From assembly GCA_041664265.1 (NCBI GenBank), contig JBAYLD010000004.1:33470-97469 (forward strand): a stretch of 64,000 bases of DNA, read 5' to 3'. The notes under the pieces are model-generated. The model worked only from the letters and a program-made list of their open reading frames with translations, was not told the origin of the DNA and ran no database searches. The position numbers and the translations under genes are program-made. Below are positions 8,033 through 59,320 of this stretch, piece after piece (positions within the stretch are counted from its first letter, which is position 1; every line of letters begins with the position of its first letter). The stretch comes from Minisyncoccota bacterium (GTDB lineage: Bacteria > Patescibacteriota > Minisyncoccia > Phycocordibacterales > Phycocordibacteraceae).

Positions 8033-10909
8033 TTACGGTGTGGTGGTGTGACGCGTGTCCATCCCCGCGAGAGGCACGGTGACATAGAAGGTTGTACCGT
8101 TTTGCTCCGCAGAATCTCTTGAGGCACCGAACGCTCGCGGCGACGGCGACTCGCACCATATCCGTCCGTGGTATTGGTCGACGGCCGCCTTTGCTATATA
8201 GAGCCCCAGACCGGTGCCCTTCACCTTGTCGTCAGTTTGGACCCGGAACAGTTTTTCGAATATTTTTTTCTGCTGATCTTTTGGTATGCCGTTGCCGGTG
8301 TCGGATACCGCGATCAGGGCGTCGCGCCCCTTCTTCTTGATCTCGATGAGGAGGGTACCTCGATCGGGGCTGTATTTTATAGCATTGGAGATCAGGTTCT
8401 CAAGAATAATCTCCATGAGCCGCCGGTCGATCTCAATGTCGGGGATATCCTCGTAGAGCTTTTTGACCCGGATTTCTTTTTCTTTCAGGGCAATACCCAC
8501 ATCTTCTAGCATCTTGTCCGAGAACTTTGTCAGGTTCACCGGCTCGAGGTTGATAACCAGCGTCCCCATCTGGATCCTCGAGATGTTCAACAAGGTCTCG
8601 ATGATGTCGGTCATATCCTTGATTCCTTTAAAGGCTATTTTCAGGTACTTCTTCTGTTCTCTAGTCAGCAGATCGTTCACATGGTGGAGTAGCATGTCGA
8701 TAGAGAGGCTAATACTCGTCAGGGGCGTCCGCAGCTGGTGGGAGGCGAAGGAGATGAATTCATTTTTTGCCTTATCAACTTCTCGCTCATGCGTGATATC
8801 TCTCCATGCGACAACCGCTCCCATGACTTCGCCATCGACGACAAAGGGCGCGGCGCTGATCGAGAGAGGGACCTTGCGCCTATCCTTTTTATTGACGAGG
8901 TGGAATGTGGTGGCGGTCGATATCGGCAAGGTCTTCTGCACTTCTGGATCGAGCGCGAGATAGATGGGCCGCTTCTCTTTTGGCACCCGCTGCCCCCGGT
9001 CATCGAAAAACGGAATCGATTCATCCAAATCCCGATGCAGGATTTCTTTTGCATCCATCCCGCACAATTTTTCGAGTGCGCTGTTTATGTATATTATTTT
9101 TCCCGACATGTCGGTCACGAGGATACCGTCAGCGATACTCAAGAGGAGCGCATCATCGCGCGCCTTCCCCTCGGCCATGCGATCTGCATATTCTTGTACC
9201 TGGTGTTCGGATTCTTTTTGTTTGCTGATGTCCCTGACGATCGAGGTATAAAACCGTTCCCGTCCGAACTTCCACGAAGACGAAGACACCTCCATCGGGA
9301 ATTCTTCGCCGTTCTTCCGCAGGCCGCGCATCTCGAGCGGCCCGCTCTCTTTGGCCAGCGGGGCGTCTTTCCCAGCCGCTTGGTTTTCTACCCCCAGGAC
9401 GAACGGCTTGCCTAGAACCTCCTTTTCGTCATACCCAAAAATGCGTTTCGCACTTTTATTCCAATATACGACGCGCCCCGCGCTATCGAACGTAATGAGC
9501 GCGTTTCGTATCGAGTCCGCCACCGAACGGAATTTTTGCTCATTTTCCTTCAACTCGCTCAGGGCTCGCTGGTTCTGGAGGGCGAGCGAAGCCATGTGCC
9601 CGAACGCGCTCGCGATCCGCTTGTCGTCCTCGGTAAAGCCGCCCGGCTTGCTCACGAATGCGAAAAATCCTGCAGGGAGGCCGTTGAGCAGTATCGGCAC
9701 GAGGAGGGCGCTCTGTATGACAATGCGGTTCCGGAACGGGTTGGCGCCCTGGTTCTCTAGGGTGAAGAAGAAATCGTTGTCGAGCACCGTTTTCCCTGTC
9801 CTGCACATTTTTTTCATGGCGCTTTTCATGGGGGCGGATTGTGTCACGTCGGCAACGCATTTCTGCAGCAAGGAATCGCAATACACGATTTCTGCCTGCT
9901 CATCTTCTCTGCCCTGCAAAACGGCGTAGCAGGATTCTGCGCCGATAGTTTTTTTGCACGCGTCGGCTATCGCTTCTGCCGAGTCTTTAAACTCGGTGTG
10001 CTTCAGAGCTTCTTGCGCGCTTCGGGAGAGGGAAGCCGTCTCTGATTCGTGCATCTCAGAATCTTCGAGAGCCTCCTGCAGATCCTCTTCTTTCTCCTTA
10101 ACGCTTTGGAGCAGTTGCTTATACGGATCCTTGAAGCTGATCGTCGCTACCGCCTGATAGAAGAAATAAAAAGAGACAACGCCCAGGGAATTCCCGATCA
10201 GATTAGAGAGATCATTCGCGCCCGCATACCACACGAAGAAGGCGGCCGAGGCGATACCGGTCGCCACCGATGAACACAAGAGATAGAATATTTTCTTCTC
10301 AAAGGCGGGGCGTCTCCATATCAAGAGCAGCAGCGAGAGAAGAAGTGCGAGGGAGACGGTGATGCCGCTCGCCCGGGTAAACGCGGTCTGCCCAACACCT
10401 TCGATATAGGAGACCGGAAATGCGTTCCAATAAAATATCGAGAACAACAAGAGGAACGTGGCGATCGCATAGGCGAGCAAGACCATGTCCACTTTTATCC
10501 TTTTGCCGATGAAGAACGGGGCCGCAACAAACGCGCTCGCCTGGAGATATTGCGTGGCGACCCAGAGCTGGGTCGCCACGTTGGTCTCGGTACTTTCGGA
10601 AGAGACGTTCATGCCTCCATAGGACAACAAATGGAGCAAGCTGGTGAAGGCGGTCGCGATAACTGAAATGCCGATAAACAGCACGTACTCGTTATTCAAA
10701 TAATCTCGGGCATTCAGAGTGATGACGAAGATGAGCACCATCAGCACGATACCGGAGAGCTCGGTCAAGTTGTGGAGCGAGAGGCGGTTATCAAGGCCGA
10801 CCAAGTAGAGCACCGCGAGCGCCAGCGCGCCGACGGCGGTATAGCGGTAGATGTCCGCAGGTATCGCTCTGGCTTGGAGAAGCACCTGTTCTCGGATGCT
10901 CAATAGCAT
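8033..10909 (-). CDS. Sensor histidine kinase with multiple TM, PAS and GAF domains
   Basis: H-box SHQLRTPL, HATPase GTGLGLYIAK, roughly 8 N-terminal TM helices and PAS repeats. Confidence 0.85.
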   Translation of the reverse strand: MLLSIREQVLLQARAIPADIYRYTAVGALALAVLYLVGLDNRLSLHNLTELSGIVLMVLIFVITLNARDYLNNEYVLFIGISVIATAFTSLLHLLSYGGMNVSSESTETNVATQLWVATQYLQASAFVAAPFFIGKRIKVDMVLLAYAIATFLLLFSIFYWNAFPVSYIEGVGQTAFTRASGITVSLALLLSLLLLIWRRPAFEKKIFYLLCSSVATGIASAAFFVWYAGANDLSNLIGNSLGVVSFYFFYQAVATISFKDPYKQLLQSVKEKEEDLQEALEDSEMHESETASLSRSAQEALKHTEFKDSAEAIADACKKTIGAESCYAVLQGREDEQAEIVYCDSLLQKCVADVTQSAPMKSAMKKMCRTGKTVLDNDFFFTLENQGANPFRNRIVIQSALLVPILLNGLPAGFFAFVSKPGGFTEDDKRIASAFGHMASLALQNQRALSELKENEQKFRSVADSIRNALITFDSAGRVVYWNKSAKRIFGYDEKEVLGKPFVLGVENQAAGKDAPLAKESGPLEMRGLRKNGEEFPMEVSSSSWKFGRERFYTSIVRDISKQKESEHQVQEYADRMAEGKARDDALLLSIADGILVTDMSGKIIYINSALEKLCGMDAKEILHRDLDESIPFFDDRGQRVPKEKRPIYLALDPEVQKTLPISTATTFHLVNKKDRRKVPLSISAAPFVVDGEVMGAVVAWRDITHEREVDKAKNEFISFASHQLRTPLTSISLSIDMLLHHVNDLLTREQKKYLKIAFKGIKDMTDIIETLLNISRIQMGTLVINLEPVNLTKFSDKMLEDVGIALKEKEIRVKKLYEDIPDIEIDRRLMEIILENLISNAIKYSPDRGTLLIEIKKKGRDALIAVSDTGNGIPKDQQKKIFEKLFRVQTDDKVKGTGLGLYIAKAAVDQYHGRIWCESPSPRAFGASRDSAEQNGTTFYVTVPLAGMDTRHTTTP

Positions 10910-11055
10910 GTCGTCATTATGGATTCTCTGCAGGGAAACAGCAAATTATTTTAGCACCCATTTCTTAATGAAAGGTTAATAAGAGTTCCTCTATTATCTG
11001 CCCAGTCAGTTGTGCGGGCGATTAAGATTAAAAATAAACATTAGAATCAACTATT

Positions 11056-16238: not shown

Positions 16239-16294
16239 TTAGGACATCCGATGTCCTAAATTCAAAATGCATGTTGGGACATCGGATGTCCGAA
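16239..16294. repeat. Tandem direct repeat made of two hairpins: ttaggacat-ccg-atgtcctaa and ttgggacat-cgg-atgtccgaa. The same element recurs at 46916..46960.
   Basis: Each unit is CATGTTRGGACATCSGATGTCC. The second hairpin is close to the reverse complement of the first. Confidence 0.8.
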
Positions 16295-32428: not shown

Positions 32429-32474
32429 TTACATAGGGCTGCCCTATGTAAGCCCGTAAGGTGTCACCTTACGG
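32429..32474. repeat. PAL-B (ttacatagggctgccctatgtaa) followed by PAL-A (ccgtaaggtgtcaccttacgg)
   Basis: Both are perfect palindromes. The downstream aagtgataagat box precedes the next ATG. Confidence 0.85.
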
Positions 32475-32739: not shown

Positions 32740-32838
32740 TACATAGGGCTGCCCTATGTAGGCAAGTTGTTTAGTGAGCACGGGTAGTAAATCCGTAAGG
32801 TGTCACCTTACGCAGAGCCGTAAGGAAACACCTTACGG
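32740..32838. repeat. PAL-B (tacatagggctgccctatgta) + PAL-A (ccgtaaggtgtcaccttacg) + variant PAL-A (ccgtaaggaaacaccttacgg)
   Basis: Three palindromes lie in about 100 bp. The aagtgataaaat box precedes the next ATG. Confidence 0.85.
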
Positions 32839-32858
32839 AAGTGATAAAATAGAGCGAT

Positions 32859-33098: not shown

Positions 33099-33103
33099 TA
33101 AAT

Positions 33104-33142
33104 CCGCAAGGTGACACCTCGCGGCGAGGTGTCACCTTGCGG
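33104..33142. repeat. PAL-A2: a 39-bp perfect palindrome ccgcaaggtgacacctcgc-g-gcgaggtgtcaccttgcgg
   Basis: The reverse complement of the left 19 nt equals the right 19 nt exactly. Confidence 0.9.
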
Positions 33143-33196
33143 ACACAGACACAGAGCCATGGGTTCAAATGTTTTTTGTTTCATACCTTGAAATAG

Positions 33197-34129: not shown

Positions 34130-34150
34130 CCGTAAGGTGACACCTTACGG
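34130..34150. repeat. PAL-A perfect copy: ccgtaaggtgacaccttacgg
   Basis: Identical to the copy inside prmC. Confidence 0.85.
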
Positions 34151-36229: not shown

Positions 36230-36240
36230 ATCCATAAACG

Positions 36241-36298
36241 CCGTAAGGTGACACCTCGCAGCGAGGAGTCACCTTACGGCGAAGGAGTCACCTTACGG
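36241..36298. repeat. PAL-A2 variant (ccgtaaggtgacacctcgc-a-gcgaggagtcaccttacgg) plus an extra partial arm (cgaaggagtcaccttacgg)
   Basis: One mismatch relative to a perfect 39-bp palindrome. Confidence 0.8.
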
Positions 36299-39036: not shown

Positions 39037-40806
39037 GTGTGGATGACACAAGGCGAGGCGCTCACCATATTGAAGACGGGTGCGAACGTATTCCTCACCG
39101 GCGAGCCCGGAAGCGGCAAGACGCACACGATAAATGAGTTTGTTGCGTGGTTGCGATCATCAGGCATCGAGCCTTCGGTGACCGCAGCGACGGGGATCGC
39201 GGCGACGCACGTGAGCGGCATGACGCTCCACTCTTGGAGCGGCATCGGCATCAGCGAGTCGCTCTCGCGGGCTGATGTAGATCGCATCGCGAGCAGGGAG
39301 CATATCGCGAAGCGCTTAACGAAAGCCAAAGTGTTGATTATCGAGGAGATCTCCATGCTGTCGGCGGCGACGTTTGAGATGGCAGACAAGGTGTGCCGCG
39401 AAGTGCGACGCAGCGACCAGCCCTTTGGTGGGCTGACGGTGATTCTCGTAGGGGACTTCTTCCAGCTCCCGCCCGTGTCGCGTCGAGGCGATGTTGAATT
39501 CGCCTATGCGTCAAAACTTTGGCGCGAATTGAATCCGATCACCTGTTACCTCACCGAACAATATCGGCAGGATGATGCGGCGTTTCTCGATGTGCTCTCG
39601 GCGATACGGTCGGGCACGGTTGAAGAGTTGCACTATGAGCATCTCACTTCGCGACAGGTCGCCAAGGATCCGTTAACAGCCGAATGCCAAGGTCGGACCT
39701 TGGAGAACTCAATACCCAAACTGTTTTCGCACAATGCGGATGTCGATCGCATCAATGCCGCTGAGCTCGCCAAGCTCCCGGGTAAAGCGAGAAGCTTCTC
39801 TATGAGCTCGAAGGGTAAGGACTCGATGGTTGAAGGCCTGAAGCGCGGCTGCCTCTCGCCAGAAATCTTGGAGTTGAAGGAGGGCGCGGCGGTCATGTTC
39901 ACCAAGAATTCGCCGCAGGGGAAGTTTGTGAATGGCACGCTTGGCGTTGTCATCGATTGGAGCTTCGATGGTGCGCCGGTTATCGAAATTCGCAGCCCTT
40001 CGACTGGTTCGACAAGCTCACCGCAAGCAAGCTCAGGGCATCGTCTCCGCGTAACCGCAGAGACTATGGAGTGGCAGCTCGAAGAACAGGGCAAGGTGAA
40101 GGCGAGCATCACACAATATCCGCTCCGGCTCGCCTATGCGATGACGGTGCACAAGAGCCAGGGCATGAGCATGGACGCGGCGATTATGGATCTCTCAAAG
40201 GCGTTTGAATATGGACAAGGATATGTCGCGCTCTCGCGCGTGCGGCGGCTCTCGGGCGTGTATCTCACCGGTCTCAACGCGCGTGCGCTTGAGGTGCATC
40301 CGGAGATCCTGAAAAAAGATAAGGACTTCCGCGCCGCCTCAGAGGCGGCGCGCGATGCATTCGCCGAAATGCCTGAAGCAGAAGTAGAAGGGATGCAGAA
40401 GAAGTTTGTGAAGGCGATGGGCGGAGCATTTATGGACCCACGCACGAAACACGAGGGGATTAAGGGACTTCGTAAGTCCCTATCTGATAGGGACTTACGA
40501 AGTCCAAACATTCCGGGAAGATTAGCCGAGACGCTCCAAGCCGCGCGAGACGCGAAGAGTTTGAAACAGGTAGCAAAAGAGCGCGGACTCACCGCGAGCA
40601 CTATCGTGAAGCATCTGGAAGAGTTGGCGGAGATGGGGAAGCTCGCCCGAGCCGACTTCGCACACCTCGTGCCGATGGATATCATCGGCGAGATCCACGA
40701 GGCGCTCGCAGAGAACAAAGACGGCCGCCTCTCGCCAATCTTCCACGCTCTCAAAGGCCGTCACTCGTTTGAAACCATCCGCCTCGTCCGCCTCATGCGC
40801 GATTAG
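39037..40806 (+). CDS. PIF1/RecD-like SF1B DNA helicase with a C-terminal HTH-like domain
   Basis: Walker A GEPGSGKT, and the linker-tail context. The helicase body is followed by a helix-rich tail. Confidence 0.8.
   Translation: MWMTQGEALTILKTGANVFLTGEPGSGKTHTINEFVAWLRSSGIEPSVTAATGIAATHVSGMTLHSWSGIGISESLSRADVDRIASREHIAKRLTKAKVLIIEEISMLSAATFEMADKVCREVRRSDQPFGGLTVILVGDFFQLPPVSRRGDVEFAYASKLWRELNPITCYLTEQYRQDDAAFLDVLSAIRSGTVEELHYEHLTSRQVAKDPLTAECQGRTLENSIPKLFSHNADVDRINAAELAKLPGKARSFSMSSKGKDSMVEGLKRGCLSPEILELKEGAAVMFTKNSPQGKFVNGTLGVVIDWSFDGAPVIEIRSPSTGSTSSPQASSGHRLRVTAETMEWQLEEQGKVKASITQYPLRLAYAMTVHKSQGMSMDAAIMDLSKAFEYGQGYVALSRVRRLSGVYLTGLNARALEVHPEILKKDKDFRAASEAARDAFAEMPEAEVEGMQKKFVKAMGGAFMDPRTKHEGIKGLRKSLSDRDLRSPNIPGRLAETLQAARDAKSLKQVAKERGLTASTIVKHLEELAEMGKLARADFAHLVPMDIIGEIHEALAENKDGRLSPIFHALKGRHSFETIRLVRLMRD
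40465..40505. repeat. 41-bp perfect palindrome ggacttcgtaagtccctatc-t-gatagggacttacgaagtcc, in-frame inside the helicase coding sequence
   Basis: Encodes KGLRKSLSDRDLRS between the helicase core and the C-terminal domain. Confidence 0.85.
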
Positions 40807-40815
40807 CAGTCACGT

Positions 40816-41582
40816 GGGGTTTCCGAAATCCTTCAATTCTTCATGAAGAATTATTCAAGATCAATCTTTTCTGGGTTATCGAGTTCTGAATCTTTAAGGA
40901 AGTCAATAAGTTCCTTGCCATAATTGCCGAAGACCTCGCTGAAGAAAGACTTTGTGAGTATGGAAGGAAAGTTTCTTCGGCCGGTATAATCGAGCAGGCT
41001 ACTCCAGCGGTATGTAGAAAGATGTTCCAAAGCTTTATTCATGTCCGCAATGCCACCTTTGTTACGGATGCGCCAGTCCTGGGCACCCTCAAGATAATCA
41101 AGCGGGTTTAGATGCAAATAGTGGAGGATATATAGAAAGTGCGGTTCATGTTCAATCAATATCCTTTTCGTGTGCCCTTGGAATAGAGTCCCTTTTCGCT
41201 CGTAGCGTTCGTTAAAGTAATTCGCATAACCGACATTAATTTTTCTGAGGAACAAACTGACACCACCCTCGACGCGCTCAGAGAGCAGGAGATGGTAATG
41301 ATTTTTCATCAGAGTCCATCCGTGAATGTCCACCAATAGCTCGCGCTCTTTTCTAAATGAAGGGTTTCCGAAACCCTTCATTCCCGATGGGTCAAAGAGG
41401 CGAGACATGTTCTCGGCAGGGGCGGTGTCATTGAATTCGTAGAGATTGTGCACAAAGCGCGCATAATCTTGAGAATCAAGAAATAATTTTCTCCCGTCGA
41501 CGCCCTTATTTAATACATGCCACAGCTCCACCCCCTCATGATACATGAAGGGTTTACGAAACCCTTCAATTCCTCATGAAGG
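40816..41582 (-). mobile_element. REPIN-like unit: a RAYT gene flanked by direct copies of a roughly 30-bp element carrying the PAL-C hairpin GAAGGGTTTCSKAAACCCTTC. A third copy sits inside the coding sequence.
   Basis: Copies at 40816..40850 (degenerate), 41356..41382 (perfect 12-bp stem with a ccg loop) and 41547..41582. Confidence 0.6.
40851..41546 (-). CDS. REP-associated tyrosine transposase (RAYT; IS200/IS605 TnpA-like Y1 HUH transposase)
   Basis: HUH motif HYHLLL, LFQGHTKRILIEHE and HYLHLNPL match the RayT and IS200 TnpA layout. The gene is flanked by palindromes. Confidence 0.7.
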   Translation of the reverse strand: MYHEGVELWHVLNKGVDGRKLFLDSQDYARFVHNLYEFNDTAPAENMSRLFDPSGMKGFGNPSFRKERELLVDIHGWTLMKNHYHLLLSERVEGGVSLFLRKINVGYANYFNERYERKGTLFQGHTKRILIEHEPHFLYILHYLHLNPLDYLEGAQDWRIRNKGGIADMNKALEHLSTYRWSSLLDYTGRRNFPSILTKSFFSEVFGNYGKELIDFLKDSELDNPEKIDLE

Positions 41583-41677
41583 TGTGGAAAATGATGGATA
41601 TCGTAGGTCCATCATCTAAGAATATAAAAAAAGAAGGACCCCGTACCAATAATCGGTACGAGGTCAAGGCTTCAGAT

Positions 41678-42262
41678 TCAACTTTTGCACACTGCAGCGG
41701 GGAAGTTTCCGTCAAATTCCTCATCGAGCCATGTAATGCTTGCACCCCAAGACTCGTTATCGCTGTGCCAAAGGAGACCACGAACACATAAATCTCCTCT
41801 TTTTACATTGCGATAGGTTGTGCCCCAGAAGCACACATACTTACCTTTCCATTCATCAGGGATGAGATGCGGGTGATCAAGTAAATAATCAAGAACGTTT
41901 GCGTTAAGGATCGTTTTCCCCGTACCCTTGAGCTCCCATTTGAGTGTTACCCCATCCAGGGATTTGCCGTTCTTTTGCCCATCGGCATAGAAGAGCTCAA
42001 CCTTGGACGGATCCCAGACAAATGAATCATCACTCCGGTGTTCTTCGACTACATGGCCTTGAGGAGCAGAGAAGTTGAGAGCGTTACAGTCTACAGCGTG
42101 ATCAGCACCTGCGATAGACGCATATCCGAGTACAACTTCACGAACCTTGGCGAGGATGTCTCCTTCACAAAGTTTCTTGATTTCCTTGTTCGTCCAGTTT
42201 CCACGTCGAAACGCGGCCTTCAATTCTCCCGCTTGGTCAACATCGAGCATTAAGTTACTCAT
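41678..42262 (-). CDS. Hypothetical protein
   Basis: ATG at 42262 is preceded by an AGGAGA ribosome-binding site. No family recognised. Confidence 0.45.
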   Translation of the reverse strand: MSNLMLDVDQAGELKAAFRRGNWTNKEIKKLCEGDILAKVREVVLGYASIAGADHAVDCNALNFSAPQGHVVEEHRSDDSFVWDPSKVELFYADGQKNGKSLDGVTLKWELKGTGKTILNANVLDYLLDHPHLIPDEWKGKYVCFWGTTYRNVKRGDLCVRGLLWHSDNESWGASITWLDEEFDGNFPAAVCKS

Positions 42263-42526
42263 CGTTGTTCTCCTTTCTGCGACGGTGTTCATTACAGAAC
42301 GATGTCGCTATGCGCTGGCGGGTTCCACTGGATTTAGTGGTTTGCCACAGCAGGGAATGGCCCAGACGAGCCGCTTTCTGCTATGGCAAACGCAAGTTGA
42401 ATCTGTCAAAGAACTTACTGCTATTATACACGAAACTTATATACTGTCAAGCGTTTTGACAAGGTGCAGGGTGTTGAGTATGAAAATATGGCTTAAAATA
42501 TGGACTTTTGAGCACAAATATCAAGG

Positions 42527-46544: not shown

Positions 46545-46919
46545 ATGTTGGTAAATGTCTGTATCGCGAAGCTGCACCGCGCGACGGTGACCGACGCCGA
46601 TCTCAATTATGTCGGCTCGATCACGATCGACGAAACGCTCCTCGAAGCGGCAGGGCTCGTGCCCGGGCAGATGGTGCAGATTACAAATGTGAGTAACGCC
46701 GTCCTCTGGCGCACCTATATCGTGAAGGGCGACAAGGGGAAGGGCGAGATCGTCTTAAACGGCCCGCCGGCGCGCCTCTTCCAAAAGGGCGACAAGGTCA
46801 TCATCCTCGGCGAGGGTTGGGTCGAGGCGGCGGAGGCTGCGAAGATGAGCCCCACGGTCGTCTTCATGGATGACCAGAATCAGATTACTGAGGTAAAAAA
46901 AGGCTGGCGCCCAAGTTAG
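46545..46919 (+). CDS. panD: Aspartate 1-decarboxylase
   Basis: MLVNVCIAKLHRATVTDADLNYVGSITIDE is strongly PanD-like (pyruvoyl Gly-Ser site). Confidence 0.8.
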   Translation: MLVNVCIAKLHRATVTDADLNYVGSITIDETLLEAAGLVPGQMVQITNVSNAVLWRTYIVKGDKGKGEIVLNGPPARLFQKGDKVIILGEGWVEAAEAAKMSPTVVFMDDQNQITEVKKGWRPS

Positions 46920-46960
46920 GACATCCGATGTCCTAATTGCACGTGGACATCGGATGTCCA
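46916..46960. repeat. Second locus of the tandem-hairpin element: ttaggacat-ccg-atgtcctaa followed by tggacat-cgg-atgtcca. The first hairpin overlaps the panD stop.
   Basis: The first hairpin is identical to the copy at 16239..16259. Confidence 0.8.
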
Positions 46961-47069
46961 AATGCAGGTTGCAAAAGTAGGATTAGAGCGTACGCTTCTC
47001 TCCGGAAGCCCTTCTTAGGTGTAAGGGCGATTTTGATTTTTAACTCACTAAAAGAAGGAGGAAGAGAGA

Positions 47070-49521: not shown

Positions 49522-49591
49522 AATGTCCAATAAAAATATCAAGGTCTCGCCTTGATAAACATGTCGGGACGTTTAACGTCCCGACATGGGC

Positions 49592-54195: not shown

Positions 54196-56883
54196 ATGCC
54201 TCCCTTTAACAATTTCACCACCAAAGCAAAAGAAGCCGTACGCCGAGCGCACGAGCTCGCGATCGAACGCGGCCAGAACCACGTCTCACCACTCCATTTG
54301 CTCGCCGCGCTTGTGCTCCAAGAGGAGTCCCTCGTCTTCTCGATGCTTGATCGGATGGAAGTCGATACCGTCATGCTCGCGGATGCCGTGCTTGAGCATC
54401 TTGAGGCGCCCGAGAGCGCATCGGTGCTCTCGCCCTCGTACCAGATTTATCTCACGCCCGATCTCGCTCAAGCGCTTGAAGCATCGGGGAAGATTGCGGC
54501 GCGCATGAATGATGCATTTGTAGGCACCGAACATCTCTTCCTCTCGGTTATCGAACATCCGGGCGGAGCCGCAGACATACTCGCGCGCTTCTCGATAAGC
54601 CAGCAGGCGGCGCTCGCTGTCCTCAAAGAATTGAAGAATTCGAAGGAGGGTCAGATTGCAGAACCGAAGCAGTTCCGCGCGCTCTCCAAATATGCGCGCA
54701 ACCTCACCAAGCTCGCCGCCGAGAACAAGCTTGATCCGGTCATTGGACGCGACAGCGAGATCAACCGCGTCATCCAGATCCTCGCGCGCCGTACCAAGAA
54801 TAACCCGGTGCTTATCGGCGAAGCGGGCGTCGGGAAGACGGCCATCGCTGAAGGGCTCGCGGCGCGTATGGCGACCAACGATGTCCCCGAATCGCTTCGC
54901 GGCAAAGAGCTCCTCTCGCTCGATCTCGGGCTCATGATCGCCGGCACCAAATATCGCGGCGAGTTCGAAGAGCGTATGAAAAATGTTATGAAGGAGGTCG
55001 AACGTGCAGAAGGGAAGGTGATCCTCTTCGTCGACGAGCTCCACACGCTCGTAGGCGCCGGCGGCGCCGAGGGCTCGCTTGACGCATCGAACATGTTGAA
55101 GCCCGCCCTCTCGCGCGGCGAGATCCGTGTCATCGGCGCGACGACACTGAAGGAGTATCAGAAGTATATCGAGAAAGATGCCGCGCTCACGCGCCGCTTC
55201 CAATCGGTTTTTGTGCAAGAACCATCCGTCGAAGACGGCATCGCGATCTTGCGCGGGCTGCGCGATAAATATGAGCTCTTCCACGGGGTGCGCATCACCG
55301 ACGGCGCTATCGTCGCCGCGGTCGAGCTCTCCTCGCGCTACATCTCTGATCGCTTCTTGCCGGACAAGGCGATCGATCTTATCGACGAAGCGGCATCAGG
55401 TCTGCGTATCGCGCTTGAGAACAAGCCGCCCTTGCTGGAGGAGACCGACCGCAAGATCCGCCGCCTCGAGATCGAGCGCCAAGCGCTCCAAAAAGACTTA
55501 GAGGGAGAACACAGCAAAGAGATCAAGGAGCGCATCAAGGATATCGATGCCGAGGTTGCCGATTTGAAGGAGAAGACAAGCGAGCTCGAGCTCAAGTGGA
55601 AGAACGAGAAGGATATATTGACCGGCATCCGCGCCCACAAGACCGAGCTCGAGGCGCTCAAGATCCAGGCGGACAATGCCGAAGCCGCCGCTGATCTCGG
55701 CACCGTCGCCGAGATCCGGTATGGCAAGATCCCGCATATCCAAAAAGATCTAGAAGCGAAGCTGAAGCGCCTGAAGATGCTCCAGAAGTCGCGCCGCGTT
55801 TTGAATGAAGAAGTAACCGAGCAGGATATCGCCGCGGTCGTCAGCCGCTGGACGGGCATCCCAGTGGTGCGCATGCTCGAAGAAGAAGCCACGAAGCTCT
55901 CGCGCATGGAGGAGTCGCTGAAGAGTAGTATTATCGGTCAGGATACTGCGGTCAAGAAGGTGACGGACGCGGTCAAGCGCTCGCGCGTGGGCATCAGCGA
56001 CCCGAATCGCCCGATCGGCTCATTCCTCTTCTTGGGGCCCACCGGCGTGGGCAAGACCGAGCTCTCGAAGAAGCTCGCGGAGTTTATGTTCAACGACACC
56101 GATGCCTTGGTGCGCATCGACATGAGCGAGTTCATGGAGAAGCACTCGGTCGCGAAGCTTATCGGCGCGCCGCCGGGCTATGTCGGCTATGAGGAATCGG
56201 GCACCCTGACTGAGCGCATCCGGCATCGCCCCTATGCGGTGGTGCTCTTCGACGAAATCGAGAAGGCGCATCCCGAGGTGTTTAATATCTTGCTTCAAGT
56301 GCTCGATTCGGGCCATCTTACTGACGGCAAGGGGCGCAAGGTTAATTTCAAGAACACCATCATCGTGCTCACCAGCAACATCGGTGGAGAGTTCATCGAC
56401 CGTCTCGCGCACATCGGCTTCGGCACCGCGGGCGCGACCGAGGCGTCGCAGTATGAAGAGACGAAAGTGCGCGTGATGGATGCGCTCAAAGAGCACTTCC
56501 GTCCGGAGTTCTTAAATCGTCTCGACGATATCATCATCTTCGACGTGCTCGCGAAGGAGGCGCTCGCGAAGATCGTCGATACGCAAGTCGAGGAGGTGAC
56601 GAAGCGCTTGGCTCAGAAGCGCATCGCGCTCGCGTTCGCTCCCGAGGTGCGCTCGTGGCTGGCCGAGAAGGGCTACAATCCACAATATGGCGCGCGCCCC
56701 TTGCGCCGCACGATCCAGGACAAGATCCTCACGCCGCTCGCTTCGCTCATGGTTGACCAGGGGGTGACAGAGGGCGGAACAGTGACGGTCTCGATCAGGT
56801 CTGCCGAGCCGCATTTTGAGGTGAAGAAGAAGCAGGTGCGTGTCCGTCGAAGTCAGACATCGACAGCTGCTGTGGATGTCTGA
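54196..56883 (+). CDS. clpB: AAA+ chaperone ClpB
   Basis: Clp_N domain, two Walker A boxes (GEAGVGKT and GPTGVGKT) and a long coiled-coil M-domain. Confidence 0.9.
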
Positions 56884-56931
56884 CTTCCACGAGTCGTTGC
56901 TTAAATCGGGTGTTTCTGCTAAATTAGCGTT

Positions 56932-57087: not shown

Positions 57088-57133
57088 CCCGCCAAAAACA
57101 AAACCGCCTTCGGGCGGTTTTGTTTTTGGCGGG
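57088..57133. terminator. Long perfect hairpin cccgccaaaaacaaaaccgcc-ttcg-ggcggttttgtttttggcggg
   Basis: A 21-bp stem between rpmG and the convergent tRNA. Confidence 0.7.
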
Positions 57134-58341: not shown

Positions 58342-59184
58342 TTATTCTTGGTCGAGGACTTTAAGTTTGCGCAGCCACGCCTTTTGGCGGCGGGCATACT
58401 GCCAGAGCTTAGCGGAGAGGATAGGGAGAAGAGCTTCTTCAATTTGGCCAACACCTGGTGTTGGCCATTTTTGCAAATATTCGCCGATGATGCGATATTC
58501 GAGCCCGAGCTCGTTCAGGCGCGCGTCGCCTACTTGATTGCGCACTCGACGCACTTCGTCAACCAATCCCCGCCCTAATGCTTGCTTTAGGCGGGCATCG
58601 ATTCTTGTGCGCAATTCTTCTTTTGGCGGGTCAATCACAATCCATTGCACAATATAGGGACTTACGATGTCCCTAGATGGGACAGAGCCAAGGGAGGAGA
58701 TGATCTCGAGCGCGCGGATGAGGCGGCGGCGGTTCTTGGGGTCGAGCTCGACGGCACGACGGGGGTCCGCGGAGCGGACGCGCACATGAAGCTCTTCATT
58801 TGAGAGCCCTTCAATTTCGGCTCGGAATGTTTGATTCGCGGCAATTTCGGGAACGGGACGGAGCAACGCGTCAAAATAGAAGTGCGTGCCGCCCACAAGG
58901 ATCGGCAACTTCCCTCGAGCAGAAATATCTTTGATCAATCGTGTTGCATCAGCGACAAAGTCGCCAGCAGAATATGTTTCGTGCGGGTCACGAATATCGA
59001 TAAGGTGATGCAGCACGCCGCGCATCTCTTCTTTCGTGATCTTTTCTGTGCCGATATCTAGGCCGCGATACACCTGCCGCGAATCAACCGAGATCACTTC
59101 ACCGTTTCGCGCAAGCGCTTCTTCAACCGCTCGCGCAGACTTGCCCGAGGCAGTCGGCCCCGCGATGCATAAAATTTTAGTCAT
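58342..59184 (-). CDS. miaA: tRNA dimethylallyltransferase
   Basis: GPTASGKS P-loop and DSRQVYRGLDIGT. Confidence 0.85.
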   Translation of the reverse strand: MTKILCIAGPTASGKSARAVEEALARNGEVISVDSRQVYRGLDIGTEKITKEEMRGVLHHLIDIRDPHETYSAGDFVADATRLIKDISARGKLPILVGGTHFYFDALLRPVPEIAANQTFRAEIEGLSNEELHVRVRSADPRRAVELDPKNRRRLIRALEIISSLGSVPSRDIVSPYIVQWIVIDPPKEELRTRIDARLKQALGRGLVDEVRRVRNQVGDARLNELGLEYRIIGEYLQKWPTPGVGQIEEALLPILSAKLWQYARRQKAWLRKLKVLDQE

Positions 59185-59235
59185 CAAGGGCGATGGTAGC
59201 ATTTTTGAATCCATCGTGCCCCAGCACGAAAACGC

Positions 59236-59320
59236 TGGTGCTGGAGGTGGGAATCGAACCCACAACCCTTGCGGGACACGATTTTGAGTCGTGCGCGTAT
59301 ACCAGTTCCGCCACTCCAGC
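59236..59320 (-). tRNA. tRNA-Leu (anticodon CAA), type II
   Basis: 85 nt. Acceptor GCTGGAG/CTCCAGC, anticodon stem CACGA/TCGTG, loop CUCAAAA, a long variable arm and an encoded CCA. Confidence 0.75.

What the first reader, a model, noticed from the sequence alone, without database searches (positions are those of the whole stretch)
40465..40505. 41-bp perfect palindrome inserted in-frame in the PIF1-like helicase linker
ggacttcgtaagtccctatc-t-gatagggacttacgaagtcc has 20-nt arms with no mismatch. It lies in the coding frame of the helicase and encodes KGLRKSLSDRDLRS, between the SF1B motor and the C-terminal HTH-like domain.

The antisense frame encodes nearly the same peptide, as expected for a palindrome. 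This is a second, distinct palindrome family residing in a coding sequence, and it supports the idea of active RPE-like elements in this genome.
Basis: seen in the sequence. Interest (0 to 1): 0.6.

Follow-up and report, generated by a model that had tools for sequence, protein, structure and literature searches.

The report
Mobile hairpin pair inside a helicase gene
The 41-base perfect palindrome is real and is a pair of small mobile-type DNA hairpins sitting in-frame in a helicase's flexible linker; the same hairpins flank, and even sit inside, a family of transposase-like genes in these ultra-small (Patescibacteria) bacteria and turn up in-frame in many housekeeping genes.

Summary
Window 40465-40505 is a perfect 20+1+20 palindrome, in-frame (KGLRKSLSDRDLRS) in the linker of a PIF1/RecD-like helicase of a Candidatus Paceibacterota MAG.

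It is an inverted pair of one 15-nt hairpin unit (GGACTT-CGT-AAGTCC). Of 107 helicase orthologues with readable linkers, only three carry both units. One has a single unit with a compensated stem change, and one has a stump.

The same unit, bounded by ATG...CAT feet, is the hairpin found upstream of, in-frame inside and downstream of a Patescibacteria family of Y1 (HUH) transposase-like genes. One of these genes lies next to the helicase. In 79 loci the three hairpins co-vary: cores are identical in 45 of 61 genes against 3.6% of random pairs. Solo hairpins match their own genome's class 11 times in 25, against about 1 expected.

The exact doublet occurs in 68 metagenome contigs. 61% of copies lie inside long ORFs, including Dus, TGT, UvrA, UvrB, PurL, GltX, ComEC and Pol III delta'.

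Best reading: a REP/REPIN-like element tied to RAYT-like transposases that behaves like Rickettsia palindromic elements by inserting in-frame in genes. Mobilisation by the enzyme is inferred, and recent activity in this genome is not shown. No paper describing this was found.

The parts
40465..40505 (.). 41-bp perfect palindrome: an inverted doublet of a hairpin unit, in-frame in the helicase linker (KGLRKSLSDRDLRS)
   Evidence: (I6)
40463..40481 (.). left hairpin unit AGGGACTT-CGT-AAGTCCCT (8-bp stem, CGT loop)
   Evidence: The same unit lies at Y1-transposase-like genes in L016, L050, L052, L056 and L078.
40489..40511 (.). right hairpin unit AGGGACTT-ACG-AAGTCC plus the outer foot AAACAT. 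A stump of it (ACGAAGTCCAAACAT) survives in orthologue L004.
39037..40806 (+). host gene: PIF1/RecD-like SF1B helicase with C-terminal HTH_40 (identical to P0001, Candidatus Paceibacterota MAG)
40851..41546 (-). RAYT-like Y1 (HUH) transposase-like gene, convergent with the helicase. The real start is probably the GTG at 41531 (P0121 is 226 aa). The gene is absent from orthologous loci L001-L004 and present at the same place in L005 and L007.
41546..41568 (.). upstream hairpin of the RAYT-like gene, TGAAGGGTTT-ACG-AAACCCTTCA, followed by AATTCCTCATGAAG
41356..41382 (.). internal, in-frame copy of the same hairpin, AATGAAGGGTTT-CCG-AAACCCTTCATT. It encodes the variable loop GMKGFGNPSF of the RAYT-like protein.
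   Evidence: (pLDDT below 50 over residues 45-65)
40816..40852 (.). downstream motif of the RAYT-like gene: a degenerate hairpin GGGGTTTCCGAAATCC followed by the palindrome AATTCTTCATGAAGAATT. It is a direct repeat of the upstream motif.
58653..58677 (.). single family hairpin TAGGGACTT-ACG-ATGTCCCTA, in-frame (SRDIVSPY) in a MiaA-like ORF 58342..59265(-). It is identical to the hairpin downstream of the RAYT-like gene in L058.
16239..16294 (.). intergenic inverted pair of related hairpins (TTAGGACAT-CCG-ATGTCCTAA, 14 nt, TTGGGACAT-CGG-ATGTCCGAA)
   Evidence: (I9)
46916..46962 (.). intergenic inverted pair of the same related hairpins
   Evidence: (I15)
6477..6503 (.). single family hairpin CATGTGGGACTT-CCG-ATGTCCCACAT
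49560..49588 (.). single hairpin CATGTCGGGACGT-TTA-ACGTCCCGACATG between convergent genes. It has the same stem class as the RAYT hairpins in L025, L035 and L043.

Best explanation
The palindrome is a REPIN-like doublet: two inverted copies of a ~15-25-nt hairpin unit ((C)ATGnn-GGACTT-CGT/ACG-AAGTCC-nnCAT(G)). The unit belongs to a family of small palindromic elements in Patescibacteria. These hairpins are the cognate sites of a RAYT-like Y1 (HUH) single-strand DNA transposase family: each such gene carries its own hairpin class upstream, in-frame inside and downstream, and solo copies of that class occur elsewhere in the same genome.

Inferred mechanism: the Y1 enzyme binds the hairpin extruded in single-stranded DNA, cleaves and rejoins next to its conserved ATG/CAT foot, and so copies or moves hairpins and hairpin pairs. 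Insertions into genes survive when they are in-frame, free of stops (two of the three frames of each unit are open) and land in tolerant loops such as this disordered helicase linker. The exact 41-bp symmetry in this lineage is most simply produced by hairpin-templated (template-switch) correction of the 13-nt centre, or by replacement with a fresh copy.

The element most likely has no function for the helicase; it is a tolerated passenger.

Shown here: the structure of the palindrome, membership of the hairpin family, absence from most orthologues, the association and co-variation with Y1 genes, and occupancy of many housekeeping ORFs. Inferred: the enzymology, the direction of events, and neutrality.
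For: (1) Structure. Each arm is a hairpin, and the whole is an inverted pair.
(2) It is an insertion. Only 3 of 107 orthologue linkers have both units. L001 and L002 have the same two units with the same 13-nt spacer length but a non-palindromic centre. L003 has one complete unit with a compensated stem change. L004 has a stump that shares the window's AAACAT foot.
(3) The family is linked to an enzyme. In 79 loci of the RAYT-like gene, the upstream, internal and downstream hairpins have identical 7-nt stem cores: 45 of 61 (internal vs downstream), 26 of 36 (upstream vs downstream) and 21 of 32 (upstream vs internal), against 3.6% for random pairs. There are 32 distinct cores. Loci L016, L050, L052, L056 and L078 use exactly ...GGGACTT-CGT/ACG-AAGTCCC.... 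Inverted doublets lie next to such genes in L022, L040 and L052.
(4) Solo hairpins match a class of their own genome's RAYT-like genes 11 times in 25, against 1.03 expected. One example is L004 6042-6068, which matches L032 from the same MAG.
(5) The protein has a Y1 HUH fold. The top Foldseek hit is 4ER8, the E. coli RAYT bound to a REP hairpin (E = 1.8e-4), and ranks 2-25 are all IS608/ISDra2/IS200 TnpA. All 39 members tested hit Pfam Y1_Tnp and NCBIfam REP_Tyr_transpos. The residues H83, H85, Y139, Y143, H145 and N147 are invariant.
(6) Dispersal. The exact doublet is in 68 metagenome contigs at about 20 different gene sites, in real housekeeping proteins. Some of these copies have perfect CATC-N-GATG centres like the window's.
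(7) The arms are 28/28 identical between the window and L001/L002, although the genes are only 74-78% identical and third codon positions are saturated at about 50%.
Against: - The RAYT-like gene next to the helicase uses a different hairpin class (GAAGGGTTT-NCG-AAACCCTTC), so it is not the obvious cognate enzyme of this palindrome.
- No gene with the GGGACTT class was seen in the 64 kb.
- Cognate hairpins are sparse near the genes: 10 extra copies in about 1 Mb. Nothing shows transposition in progress.
- Carriers of the helicase element are not monophyletic in a poorly resolved tree. The history could therefore be one insertion with losses, recombination, or repeated insertion.
- In MiaA the hairpin does not add length and overlaps conserved SPY codons. 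In some helicases a hairpin is built on the conserved GLP codons. Local palindrome formation therefore contributes in at least some cases.
- The protein scores below the curated cut-offs of both family models (22.2 against 23 bits; 27 against 80 bits), and the structure model is only moderately confident (mean pLDDT 60).
Confidence: 0.68

Rival explanations
1. The palindrome was generated locally. A quasi-palindrome in the linker was perfected or created by template switching during replication, with no mobile element involved, and its resemblance to other hairpins is incidental.
For: The window's 13-nt centre is perfect, while the homologous centre in L001/L002 is not (7 of 13 positions shared). 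The L005 helicase linker has a hairpin GGAAGTCCGGC-TCC-GCCGGACTTCC that re-uses the conserved GLP codons and encodes the recurrent 'KSGSAGLP' motif. The MiaA hairpin re-uses conserved SPY codons with no net insertion.
Against: The identical 14+14-nt arms with the same loops occur at about 20 unrelated gene sites and in intergenic DNA. The same unit flanks and interrupts Y1 transposase-like genes. The window's 58653 hairpin is identical over 21 nt to the L058 hairpin. Independent local origin cannot give this. Template switching probably explains only how the centre became perfect.
Confidence: 0.1
2. It is a functional nucleic-acid structure kept by selection in this gene. Candidates are an mRNA hairpin that pauses ribosomes between the motor and the HTH domain, an RNase or protein-binding site, or a DNA cruciform site.
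For: The arms are 28/28 identical across orthologues whose third codon positions are saturated. L003 has a compensated stem change, C>T paired with G>A. The RNA hairpin is very stable at -38.6 kcal/mol. The element lies exactly at a domain boundary.
Against: It is absent from about 100 of 107 orthologues, including the window's nearest relatives P0004 and P0006, and is reduced to a stump in L004. The same element sits in many unrelated proteins at arbitrary loops. There is no Rfam match. Conservation of the arms is equally well explained by recent origin or by homogenisation from other copies.
Confidence: 0.12
3. It is an end (LE/RE) or target site of the neighbouring RAYT/IS200-like element, that is, part of that ~0.75-kb unit and not an independent element.
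For: It lies only 346 bp from the RAYT-like gene's stop. The block 40807-42526 is low in GC and absent from L001-L004. L005 and L007 also have a RAYT-like gene right after the helicase.
Against: The gene's own hairpins are at 40816-40852 and 41546-41568 and belong to another class. The conserved HTH_40 domain lies between the palindrome and the gene. L001 and L002 have the doublet without any RAYT gene nearby, and L007 has the RAYT gene without the doublet.
Confidence: 0.04
4. It is a sequencing or assembly artefact, for example a hairpin chimera.
For: Perfect palindromes can arise as library artefacts, and this is a metagenome-assembled genome.
Against: The reading frame is preserved. Homologous doublets lie at the same site in independent assemblies L001, L002, L130 and L139.
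Confidence: 0.02

Closest known systems
REP / REPIN elements with REP-associated tyrosine transposases (RAYTs; E. coli, Pseudomonas)
   Same: Both are short GC-rich hairpins that occur singly and as inverted doublets with a short spacer. In both, a Y1 HUH gene is flanked by its cognate hairpins, hairpin class and enzyme co-vary, and the paralogues are diverged rather than identical copies. The protein's best structural and family-model matches are RAYT.
   Different: The conserved foot is (C)ATGT, not GTAG or CGTC. The elements are not extragenic: 61% lie in long ORFs, like random positions. Density is low. There are several RAYT-like genes per genome. A third, in-frame copy of the hairpin sits inside the transposase gene; to my knowledge this has not been reported for RAYTs. 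The protein is below the curated cut-offs.
Rickettsia palindromic elements (RPEs)
   Same: Both are palindromic selfish-type DNA found in-frame inside conserved protein-coding genes, adding peptide segments at tolerant sites. Both occur in small, reduced genomes.
   Different: From established knowledge, RPEs are about 100-150 bp, are restricted to Rickettsia and relatives, and have no known transposase. This element is 33-43 bp between its outer ends (about 55-60 bp with feet), occurs in Patescibacteria, and has a candidate enzyme. No sequence relationship was tested or is expected.
IS200/IS605 family (TnpA Y1; IS608, ISDra2)
   Same: The Y1 HUH fold is shared. Hairpins lie just inside both ends of a ~0.75-kb gene unit. 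Hairpins are recognised on single-stranded DNA (inferred).
   Different: Copies within a genome are diverged paralogues with different hairpins, not identical IS copies. Only 1 of 39 members touches the IS200 model. Solo hairpins and doublets are dispersed without the gene.
Quasi-palindrome template-switch mutation (hairpin-templated correction of imperfect inverted repeats)
   Same: It explains how an imperfect centre (as in L001/L002) can become a perfect palindrome, and why loops flip between CGT and ACG among copies.
   Different: It is a mutational process, not an element. It does not explain the same unit at about 20 unrelated sites.

Membership tests
REP/REPIN | Short (about 20-40 nt) palindrome able to form a stable stem-loop; REPIN = two inverted REPs with a short spacer | tested here: met
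   The units have 6-8-bp stems with a 3-nt loop. Two inverted units are separated by a 13-nt centre. The DNA fold is -21.2 kcal/mol, z = -8.5.
REP/REPIN | Conserved 5' tetranucleotide tag (GTAG or CGTC) at the hairpin foot | tested here: not met
   The consensus of 60 non-redundant copies is A-T-G/T-T at positions -6 to -3 next to GGACTT, that is, an (C)ATGT foot.
REP/REPIN | Extragenic location and high copy number (hundreds per genome) | tested here: not met
   43 of 71 doublets lie in stop-free frames of 250 aa or more, against 64% for random segments. The hosts are real proteins. Only 10 extra cognate copies were found in about 1 Mb of flanks. Whole-genome counts could not be made.
REP/REPIN | Cognate association with a RAYT gene that is flanked by the same hairpin | tested here: met
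   This holds for the hairpin family: triplet co-variation in 79 loci and 11 of 25 solo copies matching their own genome's class, against 1.03 expected. For this particular copy it is inconclusive: the neighbouring gene has another class, and no GGGACTT-class gene is in the window.
RAYT (REP-associated tyrosine transposase) | Y1 HUH fold with an HUH motif and a catalytic tyrosine motif | tested here: met
   H83-Y-H85 and Y139/Y143-H145-N147 are invariant. Foldseek's top hit is 4ER8, and the next 24 are all Y1 transposases. The model has a mean pLDDT of only 60.
RAYT (REP-associated tyrosine transposase) | Scores above the curated family threshold (NCBIfam NF047646; Pfam PF01797) | tested here: not met
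   27 bits against a cut-off of 80, and 22.2 against 23. All 39 members hit both models weakly; the best E-values are 4.2e-10 and 7.8e-07.
RAYT (REP-associated tyrosine transposase) | Typically one copy per genome per class; behaves like a vertically inherited gene | tested here: inconclusive
   There are up to 4-5 genes per MAG, but each has a different hairpin class and only 55-70% identity. The gene is present in the window, L005 and L007 and absent at the same locus in L001-L004.
Rickettsia palindromic elements (RPE) | Palindromic repeat found in-frame within conserved ORFs | tested here: met
   The hosts are the helicase, Dus, TGT, UvrA, UvrB, PurL, GltX, ComEC, Pol III delta' and an aminotransferase.
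Rickettsia palindromic elements (RPE) | Sequence or size class of RPE families (about 100-150 bp, Rickettsiales) | not tested
   No RPE consensus was available to compare. The size (41 bp) and the host phylum differ, by established knowledge. The comparison is treated as an analogy only.
IS200/IS605 insertion sequence | Near-identical multiple copies of the whole unit; hairpins only at the two ends | tested here: not met
   No second copy is in the window. Paralogues within a MAG differ in both protein and hairpin. A third hairpin lies inside the ORF.

The most novel reading that the evidence does not exclude
Patescibacteria harbour a previously undescribed REP/RAYT-like system. Each Y1 transposase-like gene carries its recognition hairpin three times: 5', in-frame inside its own coding sequence, and 3'. 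The hairpins, singly or as doublets, colonise housekeeping genes in-frame about as often as non-coding DNA. This would give the first RPE-like 'selfish DNA in proteins' phenomenon with an identifiable enzyme, and the helicase palindrome would be one such insertion.
Probability: 0.5. Interest if true: 0.8.

Novelty: new variant of a known kind. Interest (0 to 1): 0.7.

Why it matters
In-frame palindromic insertions in essential genes have been known mainly from Rickettsia, where no mobilising enzyme has ever been identified. Here the same behaviour appears in the very large, uncultured Patescibacteria radiation. The hairpins are tied by co-variation to a specific Y1 transposase-like family, so the mechanism becomes testable with oligonucleotides and a purified protein.

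The results also suggest three further points:
- Part of the lineage-specific 'linker' and loop sequence in proteins of these reduced genomes is hairpin-derived.
- A transposase gene can tolerate, and keep up to date, a copy of its own site inside its coding sequence. This may serve autoregulation or self-limitation.
- REP-like elements are not intrinsically extragenic.

In practice, such palindromes can break assemblies and gene calls in CPR MAGs. The L005 helicase, for example, is frameshifted at a linker hairpin.

Tried and rejected
- Sequence searches of the RAYT-like protein, and of its 39-member profile, against PDB sequences found nothing meaningful. Only the fold comparison and the family HMMs place it.
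- The idea that cognate hairpins swarm around the genes like classical REPs was tested and rejected: 10 extra copies in about 1 Mb.
- The idea that RAYT units are bracketed by target-site duplications was tested. Only L007 has one (36 nt of the helicase 3' end); elsewhere the only direct repeat is the hairpin itself.
- The idea of a single ancestral insertion inherited vertically was tested with a linker-masked NJ tree. Carriers are not monophyletic (0 of 200 bootstraps), but the tree is nearly star-like, so this is unresolved. A first Biopython attempt timed out.
- Rfam and the terminator scan found nothing at the palindrome.
- The 204-aa ORF next to the RAYT gene has no Pfam or NCBIfam hit and no homologue in any fetched locus, so it does not appear to be part of the system.
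- Literature searches found nothing on REP/RAYT or in-frame palindromes in CPR/Patescibacteria. The library is incomplete, so this is absence of evidence only.
- The third large protein search and the representative-library search were not spent, because the helicase already gave an unbiased orthologue set.
Full report
THE OBSERVATION

Window 40465-40505 reads GGACTTCGTAAGTCCCTATC-T-GATAGGGACTTACGAAGTCC. It is a perfect palindrome with 20-nt arms (I6). The arm sequence is not expected by chance: 0.00 matches in 100 shuffles against 3 observed, namely the two arms and a relative at 58653. The 61-nt context folds far better than shuffles, at -21.2 kcal/mol as DNA (z = -8.5) and -38.6 kcal/mol as RNA (z = -9.2).

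The palindrome is in the frame of the 589-aa ORF 39037..40806(+). This ORF is a PIF1/RecD-like SF1B helicase with a C-terminal HTH_40 domain and is identical to P0001 of a Candidatus Paceibacterota MAG. The encoded peptide is KGLRKSLSDRDLRS, and the antisense frame gives nearly the same peptide. The palindrome is therefore an inverted pair of one hairpin unit joined by CTATC-T-GATAG.

IS IT AN INSERTION?

All orthologues at 72-79% identity are 13-37 residues shorter than the window's protein. The linker between KKFVKAMGGA and PGRLAETL is hypervariable. Of 107 orthologues with readable linkers, only the window's protein, P0003 and P0005 carry GLRKS...DLRSP.

I fetched the DNA of four orthologues:
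- L001 and L002 have the same two units and the same 13-nt spacer length, but a non-palindromic centre (AACATCAAATGGG).
- L003 has one complete unit, GTGGGGATTT-ACG-AAATCCCCAC, with a compensated C>T/G>A stem change.
- L004 keeps only ACGAAGTCCAAACAT, which shares the window's outer foot.

The segment is therefore not a conserved protein feature, and wherever the peptide exists the nucleotide inverted repeat exists too.

The history is not simple. With the linker masked, carriers are not monophyletic (0 of 200 bootstraps), and the window's nearest relatives P0004 and P0006 lack the element. However, the tree is nearly star-like, with all distances at 0.14-0.16. The genes are only 74-78% identical in nucleotides, with third positions saturated at about 50%. 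Even so, the 28 arm nucleotides are identical between the window and L001/L002, and L001 and L002 share 56 of 57 nt across the element. The element is either constrained or homogenised at the DNA level, or it is younger than the genes through recombination or repeated insertion. I could not decide between these.

WHAT FAMILY IS IT?

The window contains many short hairpins: 35 perfect hairpins with a stem of at least 7 and a 3-nt loop, where simple arithmetic (64,000 x 4^-7) expects about 4. One group has the form (CATGT)nGGGAC(A/T)T-NNN-A(A/T)GTCCCn(ACATG). It occurs singly or as inverted pairs at 6477, 16239+16274, 46916+46944, 49560 and 58653, mostly between genes.

The ORF just downstream of the helicase, 40851..41546(-), is a weak match to Y1_Tnp and to the REP-associated tyrosine transposase model. 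Both scores are below cut-off, at 22.2/23 and 27/80 bits. The gene is flanked on both sides by a directly repeated hairpin motif, GGGTTT-(A/C)CG-AAA(C/T)CC + TTCAATTC(C/T)TCATGAAG. It also contains a third copy of that hairpin in-frame at 41356-41382.

THE ENZYME FAMILY

This protein belongs to a large Patescibacteria family with 1,580 database clusters at E <= 1e-5, called 'transposase' by sources.
- All 39 aligned members hit Y1_Tnp and REP_Tyr_transpos, and only one touches the IS200 model.
- The residues H83/H85 (HUH) and Y139/Y143-H145-N147 are invariant.
- An AlphaFold model (mean pLDDT 60; the hairpin-encoded loop 45-65 is below 50) finds 4ER8, the E. coli RAYT bound to a REP hairpin, as top hit. 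It is followed only by IS608/ISDra2/IS200 transposases.

In 79 loci from species-representative genomes, I extracted the best hairpin upstream of, inside and downstream of each gene. They are almost always the same hairpin within a locus and different between loci. The 7-nt stem cores are identical in 45 of 61 internal/downstream, 26 of 36 upstream/downstream and 21 of 32 upstream/internal comparisons, against 3.6% for random pairs. There are 32 distinct cores.

The general form is (C)ATG-nnGGAyyT-(CGT|ACG|CCG|CGG)-ArrTCCnn-CAT(G). Five loci (L016, L050, L052, L056, L078) use the helicase palindrome's unit...GGGACTT-CGT/ACG-AAGTCCC.... L058's downstream hairpin is identical to the window's 58653 copy. 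L022, L040 and L052 have inverted doublets beside the gene.

Solo hairpins elsewhere in these loci match a class of their own genome's genes 11 times out of 25, where 1.03 is expected from other genomes' classes. One example is the hairpin right after the helicase stop in L004, which matches the class of L032 from the same MAG. This is a REP-RAYT-type cognate relationship.

It is not a dense swarm: only 10 extra exact copies occur in about 1 Mb of flanks. Genomes often have several diverged paralogues, each with its own class.

DISPERSAL INTO GENES

A metagenome scan for GGACTTCGTAAGTC-N(1-30)-GACTTACGAAGTCC found 68 contigs and 71 copies, with total lengths of mainly 33, 42 or 43 nt. Only two copies are the helicase (L130, L139).

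43 of 71 copies lie in stop-free frames of at least 250 aa, which is the same as random segments of those contigs at 64%. The element is therefore not excluded from coding DNA.

The hosts are genuine conserved proteins, and several Pfam domains are split by the insertion: PurL, UvrA, UvrB, ComEC, GltX, TGT, Pol III delta', Dus and a class-V aminotransferase. Against the solved Z. mobilis TGT, the doublet lies in a stretch of 45 residues (111-155) that corresponds to only 4 residues of the solved enzyme. The units are read as GLRKS/GLTKS or DFVSP/DLRSP; the third frame of one unit has a TAA stop.

Copies share an outer (C)ATGT foot. Several have perfect CATC-N-GATG centres (L087, L124, L132, L140, L142), so the window's perfect symmetry is typical of a subclass. 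About 20 independent gene sites are represented, many of them shared by orthologues with different spacers. The exact-arm search biases that comparison.

In the window's own MiaA-like ORF, the single hairpin replaces part of a variable loop with no net gain in length, and its 3' half encodes the conserved SPY. In some helicases a different hairpin is built on the conserved GLP codons. Local palindrome formation therefore also plays a part.

THE NEIGHBOURHOOD

In L001-L004 the helicase is followed directly by the HAD/PMM hydrolase and the GH130 genes. In the window, a low-GC block at 40807-42526 (0.44-0.50 against 0.55-0.60) lies between them. It holds the RAYT-like gene and a 204-aa ORF that has its own promoter and terminator.

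L005 and L007 also have a RAYT-like gene convergent with the helicase. However, L007 lacks the doublet, and L001/L002 have the doublet without the gene. The window's gene also uses another hairpin class. The adjacency is therefore not the explanation for the palindrome.

MECHANISM

Shown here: the element's structure, its family, its absence from most orthologues, the enzyme association, and ORF occupancy.

Inferred, from established knowledge of IS608 TnpA and of E. coli RAYT, which bind hairpins in single-stranded DNA and cut next to them: the RAYT-like enzymes copy or move these hairpins and hairpin pairs. Selection then keeps only in-frame, stop-free insertions in tolerant loops. Template switching on the hairpin perfects centres and flips loops between CGT and ACG.

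The role of the in-frame internal copy in the transposase gene is unknown. Autoregulation, or self-limiting cleavage, is speculation.

KNOWN OR NEW?

The closest known systems are REP/REPIN-RAYT (structure and enzyme) and Rickettsia RPEs (in-frame behaviour). The element fails the REP criteria for tag, extragenic location and abundance, and the RAYT criterion for curated score. It is not an IS200-type insertion sequence. I found no paper describing REP/RAYT-like or in-frame palindromic elements in Patescibacteria.

VERDICT

The feature is real. It is a new variant of a known kind, and it points to a broader phenomenon worth following.

Noticed in passing
window 41356-41382 and loci L005-L083: Nearly every gene of the RAYT-like family has an in-frame internal copy of the hairpin that also flanks it. 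This copy encodes the most variable, low-confidence loop of the protein (SGMRDFVNPSF-type) and co-varies with the flanking hairpins (45 of 61 identical cores).
   Followed up: yes
L007 about 9900-9935 and about 10739-10775 (DAICZA010000001.1): The RAYT-like unit next to the helicase orthologue is bracketed by a 36-nt direct repeat of the helicase 3' end (CACTCGTTTGAAACCATCCGCCTCGTGCGGCTTATG). This is unique among 69 loci examined. It may record how the unit entered this site.
   Followed up: partly
window 40330-40352: A 10-bp-stem hairpin, CGCGCCGCCT-CAG-AGGCGGCGCG, lies inside the helicase CDS and encodes RAASEAAR. It is conserved in L001-L004 as CGCGCCGCGT-C(A/T)G-ACGCGGCGCG, that is, with a compensated stem change (Ala synonymous plus Glu>Asp).
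   Followed up: partly
window 3395-3435, 6115-6137, 32454-32474, 32794-32839, 33103-33143, 34130-34150, 36239-36298: A second palindrome family, TCCGTAAGGT-GAC/GTC-ACCTTACGGA, is often found as inverted pairs (33103-33143 is a perfect 20+1+20 palindrome). All copies appear intergenic. No associated gene was identified.
   Followed up: partly
window 58342-59265 (-), hairpin 58653-58677: A MiaA-like tRNA isopentenyltransferase carries a single family hairpin in-frame (SRDIVSPY). Against solved MiaA structures there is no net insertion, and the hairpin's 3' half encodes the conserved SPY.
   Followed up: partly
window 41678-42292 (-), promoter 42450->42423, terminator 41665->41637: A 204-aa ORF has no family match and no homologue in any fetched locus. 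It has a perfect 12/12 sigma-70-type promoter and an intrinsic terminator. It lies within the low-GC block between the RAYT-like gene and the hydrolase, and is absent from L005, which has the RAYT gene.
   Followed up: partly
L005 helicase linker (about 11033-11053) and proteins P0006, P0009, P0018, P0040, P0049, P0051: Another hairpin, GGAAGTCCGGC-TCC-GCCGGACTTCC, encodes the recurrent linker motif '(R)KSGSAGLP' and re-uses the conserved GLP codons. The L005 gene is frameshifted at this hairpin.
   Followed up: partly
helicase residues about 316-340 (window about 39982-40056) and proteins P0009, P0010, P0012, P0014, P0017; also P0028, P0047, P0103, P0065, P0110: Other sporadic inserts occur in helicase orthologues: 'RSPSTGSGHRLRV' in the 2B-domain region (longer in the window), 'RPDSGQAGM', 'PAEGGSAFGG' (probably a GC-rich palindrome) and the 'EARNSKQIKNS' linker type. 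Their DNA was not examined.
   Followed up: no
window 56845-56891 and 57088-57133: A 23-nt-arm near-palindrome overlaps the stop of ORF 54196..56883. A perfect 21-nt-arm hairpin, CCCGCCAAAAACAAAACCGCC/GGCGGTTTTGTTTTTGGCGGG, is terminator-like.
   Followed up: no
metagenome Ga0209542 (L085, L090, L093, L094, L096, L102, L111, L113-L115, L117, L119, L123, L131, L132, L137, L142): 17 contigs of one metagenome carry the exact doublet in different genes. This suggests at least 10 copies per genome in some populations.
   Followed up: no
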